Shown here: piece after piece, positions 1 to 29,182 of the stretch
Position numbering within the stretch: position 1 is the stretch's first letter
How the letters are laid out: every line of letters begins with the position of its first letter
Notes under the pieces: generated by a model
The model's input: only the letters and a program-made list of their open reading frames with translations
What the model was told of the DNA's origin: nothing
Databases searched by the model: none
Made by a program: the position numbers and the translations under genes
NCBI GenBank assembly: GCA_002633005.1
Contig: NMRA01000029.1
Span: 636,956 to 700,955 of the forward strand
Length of the DNA stretch: 64,000 nucleotides
Direction: 5' to 3'
From: Phoronis australis
Lineage: Eukaryota > Animalia > Phoronida

Positions 1-147
1 CCACAGTGGTTGGTCGGGGGTACGACAGAGTGGGCCCTCTGTCGCATGTCCCCAGTCCTCACAGACGTATATTTTGGATTTTGAACAAGAGACGGAGGAC
101 TGTCTACAGCTCGATGTTTATGTTCCTTATGGTGTGAAACACTTAAG
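1..147 (+). CDS. Esterase domain 1 exon (HSGWSGVRQ...CPQ...[13 protein letters not shown]), truncated by window edge
   Basis: Frame from nt 2; carboxylesterase type-B signature EDCLxLDVY; donor gtaaag at 148; near-identical to 17358-17503. Confidence 0.9.
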
Positions 148-27100: not shown

Positions 27101-29182
27101 TGGTACTTTGAGAATATCCAGAGGATAAAATAATGAGCATCGTGGAATATTGTAAAACATGTCATGAGTGTCAACACATTTTATTTGAAAAAATAGACTT
27201 AAATTGTTTTAAAGTGAAAATATGAATTGGTTCTTGTAACCGATGAATGTATCAAGACATGATATTTTTTAAATTAGTTCTTAGTGTTTAAATTATCTTT
27301 GTTACAGACAAGACAACTTCTCCTCCTGCAAAGCCCACAAACCCTGGCATTGGTAAGTTGGGGAAGTAGAAGAAATGGATGAAATTTGATAATAGGATAT
27401 ACAGGGATTATGTACATGTGTAATAATCATGTACCCATACTATGTATAATGTAAGTGTTCCATGGCTGTATCTCCTAAACTCCTTGCAGGATCTTTATGA
27501 AATTTAGCAGGAGTATTGTGATGAGCATGACAACAGAATGATGATGACTTTGGACGGATCCAACGACCACTGTGCCCTCTAGTGGCATTTTGGAGTGCTT
27601 GGTGGATTTTCTTGAAATTTGTCAGATAGGTTTCCATTGAGGACACAATGACACCTTCCCATTTTGAGATGGATTCAAGGCCACCTGGTGGTGTTTTTTT
27701 TTAAAATTTTTGGTGTCTGCCATCCTATCCTCTAAAGTGTTCAAAGGATGGTTGTGAAAGTTACCATATATTTGTTCCGTATGAGAAGAGCACAGTTAGC
27801 AATTAATCAAGCATTTGGTACATGCTGTAATCATGTAGCGTTACAATCTTAATTCGCCACATTAGGGAAATTCCAAAGTGAATTCACAAAAAATCGGAAG
27901 TTTTTAACGAAAGTGCTGCTGGATACCAAGTGTCTGTTTCATGAAAAGTGACTGAAGACTTAAGACTGAAATTTGGTCTTATGCTTCACGCAGCTATTCT
28001 GAAAATCTCACCTGAGGAAAAGTGCAAAGTCTCTGAGAGCACAGACAAAACTGCTATTCGTTGAGATAATCTCCACAAATTATCTCTAGACTGTAATGTG
28101 CTCATAAATACTAGGCAAAATTTTTTTCAGCATTTGTGAGGTGTGAGTGCGAGACCAAATTTTAATTGTAAGTCTTGAGTCAATTTCATTAAACACTGGC
28201 TCCAAATATCAACTAAATGCAGAAGTCCAGTCTGGAGTTACAGTCACAGATTAAAGAACCTCGGTTTGGGCTCTAGTCTTTGTTATCGAAATCAAACTGA
28301 AAATTAAGTTTGACACTTTCTGTTCTACTTTTGTGTGAAATTGGGATGAGTGTATTCTTCTGCACTCTAGTACATCGCTGATGTGGATAATTGTCAAATG
28401 CCAGTTTACACTTGATGACCCCAGTTGGTGCCTGAACTCGAAATTTCAAGCTTTTACTCAATGTCTCGAGTTTTGTAGCTCGAATCTAAAGTCATCCGGT
28501 GTGAATTTGGAATAGACTCCTATGCATACTTGAGAACAGGATGACAGGCAATTATTTTGAGTTTGCACAAAAGTAAAATGGGAATACAATGTGGTGGACA
28601 AGTGATAAACAATATTATCAAAATTGTCAACAGATTTAAAGTAAACAGGAAGAAAACATATTAACTTGTTTATTTCCAAAGTTTCTTTAAAACTGTCATC
28701 AACAAACACGCAATGCAGTTTGAGTATTTTTAACAATACAGTGAGCTTTCGAAAGTTGGAGAAATGACTGTTTTGGCAATTATGTTTTGTTCAAATTTTA
28801 GGAATCTTTACTGTAATTCCCATTTTCAGTAGACCCCACGCCCAGGTCCTAAATAAAGCTTGGATGCTTGTGTATTGTACATTCAGTTACAAGTGGTAAA
28901 CTGAACATATTGCAACATGATAGGAAAGTTATTTAAAAGCACTTGATGAGTGGGTTAGTAATTATACACTGAATGTCTGTTGTCTTAATTTCAGGTCCAT
29001 TTGGTCTTTCTTATGACGATGCTAACATACTAATTATTGTCCTGGGGTCTGGACTGGGTACCTCCGTTGTCATACTCATTGGCGTGTGTTGCTGTCTGGC
29101 GATGACACGCCGACGAATGAGAAGAATGAAGAGCCATTCGGAATTTCATCGTCATAAAGGCTTCGAAATGTCGTCCCTGTAA
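1..29182 (+). CDS. Multi-exon gene (5'-partial): membrane-anchored tandem multi-domain carboxylesterase / CEL-like lipase with 3 type-B carboxylesterase domains, mucin repeat, SEA-like domain, TM helix and short tail
   Basis: Exons 2-147, 1169-1320, 2568-2749, 3781-4304, 5891-6076, 8244-8545, 8864-9092, 10138-10289, 11365-11546, 12015-12502, 15356-15559, 16250-16548, 17272-17503, 18647-18798, 19098-19279, 19879-20399, 22395-22580, 24320-25173, 26044-26235, 27308-27352, 28995-29182. They sum to 5598 nt (1866 codons incl. TAA), all GT-AG, phases compatible. Motifs EDCLxLDVY, VFIHGG, GxSAG, GH..ADG, H(A/G)(D/G)E and WTNFA each recur three times. Confidence 0.88.
1169..1320 (+). CDS. Esterase domain 1 exon ([12 protein letters not shown]...[14 protein letters not shown]), oxyanion-hole loop
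   Basis: ttccag acceptor, gtgggt donor, 152 nt like paralogous exons. Confidence 0.92.
1359..2249 (+). mobile_element. Kolobok-like non-autonomous DNA transposon (TTAA TSD, long TIRs, THAP start remnant)
   Basis: TTAA at 1355 and 2250; TIR aaggcaacctttttt...aaaaaaggttgc; paralogous empty site with single TTAA at 18833; homologous to 42815 and 51645 copies. Confidence 0.85.
2568..2749 (+). CDS. Esterase domain 1 exon with nucleophile motif GQSAG
   Basis: [37 protein letters not shown]; tgttag / gtgagc. Confidence 0.93.
3781..4304 (+). CDS. Esterase domain 1 exon (RAIAQSG...GHNFADG...TDFMF), catalytic acid
   Basis: ttccag acceptor; phase-2 donor gtgggt matches 12502 and 20399 in paralogs. 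Confidence 0.9.
4920..5050 (-). mobile_element. tRNA-derived SINE-like head (degenerate paralogous copy at ~21420-21520)
   Basis: Minus strand: A-box-like tgtcctagtggt and B-box ggttcgagtcc; no complete cloverleaf. Confidence 0.55.
5891..6076 (+). CDS. Esterase domain 1 exon with catalytic His ([11 protein letters not shown]...GDHGGEL...WTNFATTG)
   Basis: Correct frame is not in the ORF track; ttgtag / gtgagt; translated by hand. Confidence 0.9.
6685..7074. mobile_element. Foldback/MITE: ~390-bp near-perfect palindrome
   Basis: ~185-bp arms tatgttt..aaaatcaacttattcgtagaccgtggaattggaggttcgaacg / cgttcgaacctccaattccgcggtctacgagtaagttgatttt..aaacata around a short loop at ~6870-6888. Confidence 0.85.
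7608..7790. repeat. Short interspersed repeat (second copy 10424-10584)
   Basis: Shared ttaaaga..tgtatttgc..taactatgctaatg..tatagcagga..aaacaaagtgcagt..ctgcaaataggt. Confidence 0.7.
8244..8545 (+). CDS. Junction exon: end of domain 1 (DPN...WPPY), Pro-rich linker, start of domain 2 ([12 protein letters not shown])
   Basis: ttgtag acceptor, phase-1 donor gtaggt; no stop or signal peptide between domains. Confidence 0.87.
8674..8802 (+). pseudogene. Decayed tandem copy of exon 8864-9092 (pseudo-exon)
   Basis: [28 protein letters not shown]... vs [36 protein letters not shown] deleted, G-run expansion, truncated after the CP codons. Confidence 0.8.
8864..9092 (+). CDS. Esterase domain 2 exon ([16 protein letters not shown]...EDCLYLDVY)
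   Basis: tgcag / gtaaga; type-B signature. Confidence 0.92.
9093..9380 (+). repeat. Intronic minisatellite, ~60-70-bp unit, 4-5 copies
   Basis: aagaacttaccattaccatcagggtaggaagtgaacactac..tataaatggtacat repeated from the donor site onward. Confidence 0.85.
10138..10289 (+). CDS. Esterase domain 2 exon ([14 protein letters not shown]...[13 protein letters not shown])
   Basis: ttttcag / gttagt; 152 nt; absent from ORF track, translated by hand. Confidence 0.92.
11365..11546 (+). CDS. Esterase domain 2 exon with nucleophile motif GVSAG
   Basis: [15 protein letters not shown]...[10 protein letters not shown]; aacag / gtaagt; 182 nt. Confidence 0.92.
12015..12502 (+). CDS. Esterase domain 2 exon (RVISQSG...PVVDGVFLP...GHSQADG...TDFMF)
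   Basis: ttacag / gtattt. Confidence 0.9.
12572..12638. repeat. (TG)n/(TGCG)n microsatellite
   Basis: Seen directly. Confidence 0.9.
12749..13897 (+). mobile_element. Helentron-associated non-autonomous element (HINE/DINE-1-like), spans assembly gap
   Basis: 5' T-run + atgcgcccac subTIR with hairpin, (cgtc) microsatellite, ctagtggc tandem units, 3' gtgggcgcat subTIR + caacgctctgcgttg stem-loop + T-run. Confidence 0.75.
13209..13574. other. Assembly gap (366 N)
   Basis: N run inside the tandem array of the HINE-like element. Confidence 1.
14040..14930 (+). mobile_element. Older degenerate copy of the ctagtggc (HINE-like) repeat
   Basis: gcattatgccgtcat start, tgtggcacctcctagtggcac and gaaatttggc motifs; further fragments at 6490-7170, 20820-20990, 27460-27780, 57375-57620. 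Confidence 0.6.
15356..15559 (+). CDS. Esterase domain 2 exon with catalytic His (YYYLFEHRP...[12 protein letters not shown]...WTNFAHTG)
   Basis: ttttag / gtgagt. Confidence 0.92.
16250..16548 (+). CDS. Junction exon: end of domain 2, linker, start of domain 3 ([12 protein letters not shown])
   Basis: ttgcag / gtaagc phase 1; open frame through the domain boundary. Confidence 0.88.
17272..17503 (+). CDS. Esterase domain 3 exon ([17 protein letters not shown]...EDCLELDVY)
   Basis: ttttag / gtaaag. Confidence 0.92.
18647..18798 (+). CDS. Esterase domain 3 exon (VFIHGGGY)
   Basis: ttccag / gtgggt; 152 nt. Confidence 0.92.
19098..19279 (+). CDS. Esterase domain 3 exon with nucleophile motif GESAG
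   Basis: tgttag / gtgaga; 182 nt. Confidence 0.93.
19879..20399 (+). CDS. Esterase domain 3 exon (RAIAQSG...GHNFADG...TDFMF)
   Basis: ttccag / gtgagt. Confidence 0.92.
22395..22580 (+). CDS. Esterase domain 3 exon with catalytic His (GDHADEL...WTNFATTG)
   Basis: ttgtag / gtgagt; 186 nt like 5891-6076. Confidence 0.9.
22620..22890. mobile_element. MITE with gggtctgtttc(a/g)tgaaaagtgac termini (related copies 27930-28200, ~31400-31521, ~53390)
   Basis: Left gggtctgtttcgtgaaaagtgac..agacttaag; right cttaa..tttttatgaagtagactcc; reverse-complement end at 31498-31521. Confidence 0.6.
22896..23093. repeat. Minisatellite, ~62-bp unit x3
   Basis: tctgcctcgagtgtgactttgta..agtgaaggcatgcaagtcagtgggtctgctggcctg repeated. 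Confidence 0.9.
24320..25173 (+). CDS. Exon: end of domain 3, mucin-like 20-aa repeats, first half of SEA-like domain
   Basis: tttcag / gtgaga; DPTKG...WP then ([20 protein letters not shown])n then [12 protein letters not shown]...NFDLRRG. Confidence 0.9.
24541..24960 (+). repeat. Coding minisatellite, 7 x 60 nt (Thr/Pro/Ser-rich mucin-like stalk)
   Basis: Seven consecutive 60-nt blocks align: ctgcaacctcatcccctccgtacactgaa..ccaactacattggctgaagtcgacacca. Confidence 0.95.
26044..26235 (+). CDS. Exon: second half of SEA-like domain (G/SIVVSFDL...)
   Basis: ttcatag / gtaagt, phase 1-1; joins to give DLRRGSIVVSF. Confidence 0.83.
27308..27352 (+). CDS. 45-nt juxtamembrane spacer exon ([15 protein letters not shown])
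   Basis: ttacag / gtaagt, symmetric phase 1-1, Pro/Thr-rich. Confidence 0.7.
28995..29182 (+). CDS. Terminal exon: TM helix, CCC, basic stop-transfer, cytoplasmic tail ending EMSSL
   Basis: tttcag acceptor phase 1; [38 protein letters not shown] at 29180-29182. Confidence 0.83.

What the first reader, a model, noticed from the sequence alone, without database searches (positions are those of the whole stretch)
1..29182. Concatenated poly-carboxylesterase on a mucin/SEA/TM anchor: one membrane protein with at least 3 CEL-like lipase domains
Seen: the esterase exons splice into one open frame of ~1865 aa, so this is not a tandem gene array. A 6-exon unit with phases 2,1,0,2,2,1 repeats. Junction exons 8244-8545 and 16250-16548 run from one domain's C-terminus through a Cys/Pro linker into the next domain's first strand (PxVxLxQGxxxG) with no stop or signal peptide. 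All three domains keep Ser, acid and His. The gene ends in mucin stalk, SEA-like domain, TM helix and short tail. Known: type-B carboxylesterases (CES, AChE, CEL, neuroligin) normally carry one domain; tandem-domain membrane hydrolases occur in other families (lactase-phlorizin hydrolase, sucrase-isomaltase, PLB1). Inference: an apical or gut-surface multi-site lipase built convergently from the CEL fold. I do not know this architecture from characterised proteins, and more domains may lie upstream.
Basis: partly seen in the sequence, partly recalled or inferred. Interest (0 to 1): 0.9.

Follow-up and report, generated by a model that had tools for sequence, protein, structure and literature searches.

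The report
Three esterases in one membrane protein
An expressed animal gene links at least three esterase enzyme units, normally separate proteins, in one reading frame with a mucin-like stalk and a predicted membrane anchor, so it likely makes a multi-site cell-surface lipase that can be shed; uncharacterised gene models in fish, sea squirts and bivalves show similar chains.

Summary
21 exons give one 1865-aa open frame with three type-B carboxylesterase domains, each keeping Ser-Asp-His. A Thr/Pro stalk, a SEA-like domain, a membrane helix and a short tail follow. RNA-seq reads span the domain 2-to-3 junction (14 reads, three runs) and seven more of the ten predicted junctions down to the membrane exon. 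The domain 1-to-2 junction was not tested. The three domains form their own clade, so the chain grew by intragenic duplication; domains 1 and 3 show purifying selection (dN/dS 0.27).

'CEL-like' is unresolved: the motifs fit, but the trees neither support nor reject it. Concatenation is not unique: zebrafish ces2b (3 domains), Styela (4 plus membrane helix), shark, hemichordate, starfish and bivalve gene models have it. I found no paper describing any of them. What I saw only here is all domains intact plus a mucin-SEA anchor; the membrane-anchored relatives end in a dead domain. Gut location and substrate are untested. Verdict: a real new variant of a known family, interest 0.5.

The parts
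1..6076 (+). Esterase domain 1 core, 5'-truncated by the window: exons 1-147, 1169-1320, 2568-2749, 3781-4304, 5891-6076; triad S140/D264/H360 in model numbering
8244..8545 (+). Junction exon 6: C-terminal helix of domain 1, Cys/Pro linker, first strand of domain 2
   Evidence: splice to 8864 not tested with reads
8864..15559 (+). Esterase domain 2 core: exons 8864-9092, 10138-10289, 11365-11546, 12015-12502, 15356-15559; triad S665/D784/H877; 46-47% identical to domains 1 and 3
   Evidence: last exon covered by reads
16250..16548 (+). Junction exon 12: end of domain 2, Cys/Pro linker, first strand of domain 3
   Evidence: 14 reads in three runs join it to 17272
17272..22580 (+). Esterase domain 3 core: exons 17272-17503, 18647-18798, 19098-19279, 19879-20399, 22395-22580; triad S1184/D1307/H1403; 92% identical to the domain 1 core
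24320..25173 (+). Exon 18: end of domain 3, linker Cys, mucin-like stalk, first half of the SEA-like domain
24546..24964 (+). Seven 60-bp (20-aa) Thr/Pro-rich repeats, 86% alike; the 157-aa stalk is 39% Ser+Thr
25011..26219 (+). SEA-like domain, about 113 aa, split by the intron 25174-26043 at the G-SIVV motif
   Evidence: two-chain fold score 0.76 against best control 0.17, contacts in ferredoxin strand order; no Pfam or PDB sequence hit
26044..26235 (+). Exon 19, second half of the SEA-like domain
   Evidence: joints on both sides seen in reads
27308..27352 (+). Exon 20, 15-aa Pro/Thr spacer
28995..29182 (+). Exon 21: predicted membrane helix (19-residue hydropathy peak 2.44 at aa 1815), three Cys, basic stop-transfer run, about 24-aa tail, stop codon
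   Evidence: 12 reads join 27352/28995
29183..29900 (+). 3' UTR, transcribed on the same strand at least to 29900
   Evidence: depth 9.5, 9.3 and 1.5 in bin 29376-29900

Best explanation
This is one transcribed gene whose exons encode at least three carboxylesterase domains in one frame followed by a stalk, a SEA-like domain and a hydrophobic helix; it likely makes a type I membrane ectoenzyme whose three predicted serine-hydrolase sites would hydrolyse lipid esters at an epithelial surface, most likely the gut. Shown: the frame, the triads, splicing from domain 2 through domain 3 to the membrane exon, and purifying selection on the two recent copies. Inferred: (1) each domain folds and works on its own, like beads on a string; (2) the two domain types (1 and 3 against 2, 46% identical) split the substrate range, as the two halves of sucrase-isomaltase do; (3) the O-glycosylated stalk lifts the enzymes off the membrane; (4) the SEA domain cuts itself at G-S, so the enzyme part hangs on non-covalently and can be shed; (5) the Cys 16 residues after each last helix forms disulfides, probably between chains. 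The chain arose by in-gene duplication of a six-exon cassette with matching phases; the last copying or conversion event covered five core exons (dS 0.15).
For: Frame and phases. Pfam order. Triad and oxyanion-hole residues intact in 3 of 3 domains. 8 of 10 junctions listed in reads, all on the + strand, with no depth in the intron bin after the junction exon. Domain 1 against 3 core: dN 0.041, dS 0.153 over 395 codons. Domains monophyletic: FastTree 1.0, SH-aLRT 99.8 and 100. SEA halves fold together: score 0.76, best of 3 controls 0.17; runs agree in at least 95% of contacts; partner pLDDT at least 87. That mark was reached by 51 of 78 solved complexes and 2 of 108 mismatches, and on eukaryotes by 39 of 65 and 2 of 126. 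Contacts place the SIVV strand between the first and second strands and the last strand beside the first, which I read as the ferredoxin-like order. MUC1 has a 20-aa repeat, then a SEA domain that self-cleaves at GSVVV and allows shedding (PMC6491460, passages). Brush-border hydrolases with repeated catalytic domains on one anchor: PMC5691722 (passages).
Against: No activity, tissue or localisation data. Expression is modest: about 2-6 reads per kb per million, my estimate from the all-exon bin 24640-25106, which is not the level of a dominant digestive enzyme; the tissue is unknown. Junction 8545/8864 is untested, and 17503/18647 is not listed. The junction reads at 16548/17272 could come partly from a similar junction upstream of the window. 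Poly(A)-like hexamers lie within 60 nt of both junction-exon donors (8569, 16583), as they do for 3 of the other 18 donors and 29 of 393 intron bins. The SEA call has no sequence-level hit. The first half folded alone as a three-strand meander, not strand-helix-strand. The two-chain pass may reflect likeness to solved SEA domains. CEL kinship is unresolved.
Confidence: 0.55

Rival explanations
1. Same single membrane protein with working esterase sites, but its job is surface detoxification or signal-ester turnover on a non-gut epithelium (gill, skin, excretory organ) rather than lipid digestion.
For: Modest expression. No tree support for CEL. Carboxylesterases are discussed as detoxifying enzymes in PMC10932694 (passages).
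Against: CEL-type Asp acid and a 15-17 residue omega loop. The stalk-anchored multi-domain design matches brush-border hydrolases.
Confidence: 0.27
2. The ectodomain works mainly as an adhesion or ligand-binding scaffold, like neuroligin or MUC1, and catalysis is secondary.
For: Neuroligin is the best PDB match for the middle exon. Mucin-SEA-membrane tail. Membrane-anchored relatives carry a dead last domain in 7 of 7 models.
Against: All three triads and oxyanion holes are intact, unlike neuroligin, thyroglobulin and the relatives' last domains. The Ser exon is the most constrained (dN/dS 0.04). The tail is short.
Confidence: 0.1
3. Domain 1 belongs to a separate upstream gene, or the main products are shorter secreted forms that end by intronic polyadenylation after exon 6 or 12, and the long chain is a minor read-through.
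For: Stops and hexamers just inside both introns. Junction 8545/8864 untested.
Against: Domain 2's first strand lies inside exon 6, in frame after domain 1, with no Met or signal. Exon 6 aligns with exon 12, which is spliced onward in 14 reads with no depth in the next intron bin.
Confidence: 0.06
4. Domain 1 is an assembly artefact, a second haplotype of domain 3.
For: 92% identity of the cores with similar introns. Reads laid on domain 3 carry domain-1-type bases, in 10 of 10 X2 reads at 22467-22475.
Against: The cores continue into different exons (6 against 18, 48% identical). dS is 0.15. A 900-bp element sits in the domain 1 intron only. Exon 6 needs an upstream esterase core in any case.
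Confidence: 0.02

Closest known systems
Type-B carboxylesterase family, Pfam PF00135; bile-salt-activated lipase/CEL (PDB 2BCE, 1F6W; lamprey XP_061434640.1)
   Same: Fold, Ser-Asp-His triad, short omega loop, about 35% identity over trimmed columns
   Different: One domain and no membrane anchor in the lamprey and shark sequences seen; the model is not inside the CEL clade, and its Ser-to-His span is shorter (212-220 against 229-244 aa)
Uncharacterised deuterostome tandem-carboxylesterase membrane proteins: Styela XP_077968891.1 (4 domains), Mustelus XP_078056857.1 (3), Glandiceps XP_077983973.1 (2), Acanthaster XP_022100211.1 (2)
   Same: Tandem PF00135 domains, Cys/Pro linkers (Cys at +12 to +17 after the last helix in 8 of 14 domains and 5 of 5 proteins; model 3 of 3; single-domain hits 1 of 38), one C-terminal membrane helix, loosely similar juxtamembrane motif (15 of 500 shuffles score as well)
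   Different: Their last domain is catalytically dead, their domains fall in different parts of the tree, and they lack the repeat stalk and the SEA motif. Gene models only.
Teleost and frog ces2b-type concatemers (Danio rerio ces2b, 1611 aa, 3 domains; up to 5 in other fish)
   Same: Several intact esterase domains in one chain with no internal signal peptide. A 105-kDa zebrafish Ces2b database entry was detected by activity-based profiling (PMC9786740, table passage).
   Different: CES clade, linkers mostly 0-4 aa (8-9 in the frog), no linker Cys (0 of 20), C-terminal xxEL retention-type end instead of a membrane anchor
Bivalve concatemers (Solemya KAL5014963.1, Saccostrea XP_061179317.1, Ostrea 6 domains, Mactra KAL4226755.1)
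   Same: 2-6 intact domains, own duplications, hydrophobic C-terminus
   Different: GPI-signal-like end, no linker Cys (0 of 16, counting one unnamed protein that groups with them), no SEA motif
Brush-border tandem hydrolases (lactase-phlorizin hydrolase, sucrase-isomaltase) and MUC1
   Same: Repeated catalytic domains on one membrane anchor (PMC5691722 passages); 20-aa repeat then self-cleaving SEA then membrane helix (PMC6491460 passages)
   Different: Unrelated catalytic folds; MUC1 has no enzyme. Works-like only, not membership.

Membership tests
Type-B carboxylesterase (PF00135) | Profile match over the domain | tested here: met
   15 of 15 core exons hit in profile order; three full domains with own HMM
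Type-B carboxylesterase (PF00135) | Ser, acid, His and GG oxyanion hole | tested here: met
   3 of 3 domains
Type-B carboxylesterase (PF00135) | Ester hydrolysis | not testable with these tools
   needs an assay
CEL / bile-salt-activated lipase | Asp as acid residue and short omega loop | tested here: met
   both also occur in several non-CEL rows of the same table
CEL / bile-salt-activated lipase | Falls in the CEL clade | tested here: inconclusive
   outside the starred 5-row CEL clade; AU p 0.435 for joining it
CEL / bile-salt-activated lipase | Single secreted domain | tested here: not met
   three domains and a membrane helix
Cholinesterase | Long omega loop with the choline-binding Trp (feature recalled) | tested here: not met
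   loops of 15-17 aa without Trp
Neuroligin | Catalytic Ser lost, long omega loop | tested here: not met
   Ser present in 3 of 3; neuroligin rows show Gly
Deuterostome tandem-esterase membrane proteins (Styela/Mustelus/Glandiceps/Acanthaster models) | Linker Cys after the last helix and C-terminal membrane helix | tested here: met
Deuterostome tandem-esterase membrane proteins (Styela/Mustelus/Glandiceps/Acanthaster models) | Dead membrane-proximal domain | tested here: not met
   dead in 7 of 7 such models, intact here
Deuterostome tandem-esterase membrane proteins (Styela/Mustelus/Glandiceps/Acanthaster models) | Domains group with a domain of this family | tested here: inconclusive
   backbone unresolved
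SEA domain (PF01390, accession recalled) | Profile match | tested here: inconclusive
   no hit, but only the two exon halves could be scanned
SEA domain (PF01390, accession recalled) | Ferredoxin-like fold with the G-S-V/I-V-V motif at the hairpin | tested here: met
   motif in sequence; contact pattern of the two-chain model, my reading; prediction only
SEA domain (PF01390, accession recalled) | Autoproteolysis | not testable with these tools
   needs protein work

The most novel reading that the evidence does not exclude
Carboxylesterases have been concatenated several times independently in animals (fish/frog ER-type, bivalve GPI-type, a deuterostome membrane family reaching sharks). This gene is a derived member of that undescribed membrane family: its dead last domain was lost, the relic of that domain's linker and first strand was amplified into the mucin stalk, and a self-cleaving SEA domain was added. 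The result is a sheddable, all-active poly-lipase, a carboxylesterase counterpart of lactase and sucrase-isomaltase.
Probability: 0.35. Interest if true: 0.72.

Novelty: new variant of a known kind. Interest (0 to 1): 0.5.

Why it matters
Characterised type-B carboxylesterases carry one catalytic domain per chain (own knowledge), and database entries with several are often merged neighbouring genes: 22 of the 59 multi-domain proteins seen here fail a clean-linker test. This gene has read support for a domain-to-domain splice and for the path to the membrane exon, so it shows that such chains can be real. That makes the overlooked zebrafish ces2b, tunicate, shark and bivalve models worth testing. 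It also offers a clean case of cassette-wise domain multiplication with recent homogenisation, and a possible invertebrate surface lipid-digesting enzyme built on the brush-border plan from another fold.

Tried and rejected
No genome is held, so upstream domains could not be counted. No indexed RNA holder was listed; the runs came by species label. A word search with the domain 3 middle exon found nothing. One with the N-terminal exon gave 26 single-domain proteins of 327-572 aa, mostly from metagenomes, so no annotated copy of this protein was retrieved. Atlas searches on exon 6 and on the SEA first half gave no useful family. PDB sequence searches with the SEA halves and exon 12 gave only chance hits. 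AlphaFold on the SEA first half alone gave a meander; I judged a half-domain model meaningless and ran no fold search on it. The careful mixture-model tree did not finish in two runs, so the quick tree is cited. A grouping with two Lingula proteins (SH-aLRT 97) did not survive other models and is treated as long-branch attraction. The juxtamembrane motif test is weak: 15 of 500 shuffles tie, and two amphioxus single-domain tails score higher.

Paper searches for the architecture found no description, judged from listings: 0 papers; 4, unrelated; 6; 1, unrelated; 0; 5; 3; 4. Johnson and Moore 2012 (PMID 22210164), a survey of this family in invertebrate deuterostomes, is not held and was not read; it may mention multi-domain members. 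No supplements were read. Look-ups of earlier scan findings gave nothing bearing on this.
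Full report
Observation. I rebuilt the gene from the window by coordinates. Twenty-one exons with GT-AG ends give one open frame of 1865 aa that starts mid-exon at base 1 and stops at 29182. 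Pfam COesterase hits all 15 core exons in profile order three times and none of the six other pieces scanned. The linkers are 13-14 residues, without Met or hydrophobic run. All three domains keep the oxyanion glycines, Ser, Asp and His. After domain 3 come seven 20-aa Thr/Pro repeats, a SEA-like segment, one hydrophobic helix and a short basic tail.

Transcript evidence. Four runs labelled as the same species were offered. In the first lay (13600-29900, 90% likeness) repeats crowded the joint table, but two tail junctions showed. In the second (15300-29300, 96%, three raw-read runs) 8 of 10 predicted introns were listed as GT-AG joints, all from the + strand. These include the domain 2-to-3 junction (14 reads) and the junction into the membrane exon (12 reads). 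15559/16250 had 2 reads in the side table, 17503/18647 was not listed, and one further joint was between repeats. The intron bin after the junction exon was empty. Limits: these are short reads, so the chain is inferred junction by junction. Reads at 16548/17272 could include a near-identical junction upstream of the window, though that too would be a domain-to-domain splice. Exon 6 aligns with exon 12 throughout and holds domain 2's first strand, so a separate start for domain 2 is hard to construct. Expression is modest, about 2-6 reads per kb per million by my estimate, in unknown tissue.

How the chain arose. The three domains form one clade in every tree that held them (domains 2 and 3), so the repetition is this lineage's own. 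The cores of domains 1 and 3 are 92% identical with dS 0.15 and dN/dS 0.27, while their closing exons 6 and 18 are only 48% identical. Their introns match at 77-92%. A recent duplication or conversion therefore covered five core exons and ended in the following intron. Reads laid on domain 3 carry domain-1-type bases (10 of 10 in X2, 3 of 11 in X1 at 22467-22475); these may be domain 1 transcripts or converted alleles. The first stalk repeat resembles the post-Cys linker and first strand in exon 6 (DNA: 3 of 5000 codon shuffles score as well; protein: 213 of 5000), but not that in exon 12 (4011 of 5000). I infer that the stalk is an amplified relic of the start of a lost further domain.

The SEA-like part. 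No profile or PDB hit was obtained, but only the two exon halves could be scanned. Folded as two chains they scored 0.76 against a best control of 0.17, with at least 95% contact agreement and partner pLDDT of at least 87. The mark was reached by 51 of 78 solved and 2 of 108 mismatched pairs (eukaryotes 39 of 65 and 2 of 126). Halves of one domain may pass by likeness to solved structures. The closest contacts put the SIVV strand antiparallel between the first and second strands and the last strand beside the first, which I read as the ferredoxin-like order of SEA. The first half alone gave a different, meander model. MUC1's SEA self-cleaves at GSVVV and lets the ectodomain be shed (PMC6491460, passages); cleavage here is inferred.

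Relatives. A profile of the three middle exons against 1.84 billion representatives gave 328 hits, best 150 listed, led by multi-domain proteins. A second search among proteins of 1291-4111 aa gave 58. Of 263 proteins then held, 59 had two or more near-full domains and 37 of these had short non-hydrophobic linkers. Of the 37, 22 are fish or frog ces2b-type ending in xxEL, 5 have a GPI-like end (four named bivalves, one unnamed), 6 have a membrane helix (four Styela, Acanthaster, Glandiceps) and 4 are others. The remaining 22 look like merged genes or mis-predictions, and include the Mustelus model, which failed on one 121-aa linker. These sets contain paralogues and close species and are not a census. 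All seven membrane-anchored models end in a dead domain, and none has the SEA motif in its tail. They share with this protein a Cys 12-17 residues after the last helix: 8 of 14 domains, against 0 of 20 fish/frog, 0 of 16 bivalve-type and 1 of 38 single-domain hits. They also share a weakly similar juxtamembrane motif. This suggests, without proving, descent from that family. Best identity to anything else is about 38% over trimmed columns.

Is it CEL-like? CEL is the best PDB match for the Ser exon, but neuroligin and cholinesterase outrank it for the middle exon. The Asp acid and short omega loop fit CEL but are not exclusive to it. Trees leave the domains outside the CEL clade without rejecting a link (AU p 0.435; the bootstrap there had not settled). 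It is a type-B carboxylesterase; it is not shown to be a CEL.

Literature. Eight searches aimed at the architecture or family found no description (listings only). Passages read: PMC10932694 treats ces2b copies as tandem genes. PMC9786740 lists a 105-kDa Ces2b fragment entry among probe-enriched serine hydrolases. PMC5691722 and PMC12467236 describe brush-border hydrolases. PMC12992692 (abstract and passages) and bioRxiv 2025.06.18.660348 (passages) concern thyroglobulin and do not describe such chains in the passages seen. Johnson and Moore 2012 could not be read and may bear on novelty. No supplements were read.

Mechanism and verdict. Most likely a type I membrane, possibly sheddable, multi-site esterase acting on lipid esters at an epithelial surface, gut first (0.55); surface detoxification elsewhere is the main rival (0.27). 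My confidence that all three domains lie in one polypeptide is about 0.92. The design is a new variant of a known enzyme family with unstudied parallels in other animals; all-intact domains on a mucin-SEA anchor were seen only here among the proteins examined. Interest 0.5.

Noticed in passing
window 33120-33278 and 33771-33908, - strand: Last exons of an FtsH/YME1L-type protease gene (Pfam Peptidase_M41, E 6e-08 for the first piece), convergent with the esterase gene; the YME1L label is recalled.
   Followed up: partly
window 1351-2257 (intron 2): About 900-bp element with about 300-bp terminal inverted repeats, absent from the matching intron of domain 3; related copies at about 42800-44160 and 51640-52930. 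A frame at 52309-52602 (-) holds a CxxHF motif reminiscent of THAP transposases (recalled; no Pfam hit).
   Followed up: partly
P0201 and P0187-P0215: Teleost ces2b gene models carry 3-5 intact esterase domains with 0-4 aa linkers and one terminal xxEL, in many species including zebrafish; I found no paper that notes this.
   Followed up: partly
P0027, P0188, P0195, P0162, P0049: An apparently undescribed deuterostome family of 2-4 esterase domains plus membrane helix with a dead last domain, present from starfish to shark; the dead domains of shark, hemichordate and starfish group together (SH-aLRT 98).
   Followed up: partly
window 22467-22528, 17483 and 16500: Runs differ in domain-1-type bases on domain 3 exons, and X1 has 8 extra reads of 90-96% likeness at the end of exon 12 (12 reads, 4): allelic conversion or a further upstream copy.
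   Followed up: no
window 61560-62258, - strand: 233-codon frame with a hydrophobic stretch and acidic region, no Pfam hit; possibly a retroelement ORF.
   Followed up: no
window 13209-13574 and 34549: Assembly gap of 366 N inside intron 10 between pieces of an abundant repeat, and one single N; no esterase exon is missing from the profile at that point.
   Followed up: yes
window 13600-13900, 14495-14533, 20830-20940, 27460-27510: Intronic repeat family heavily represented in RNA reads (up to about 500-fold on the + strand), probably from UTRs of many transcripts.
   Followed up: no
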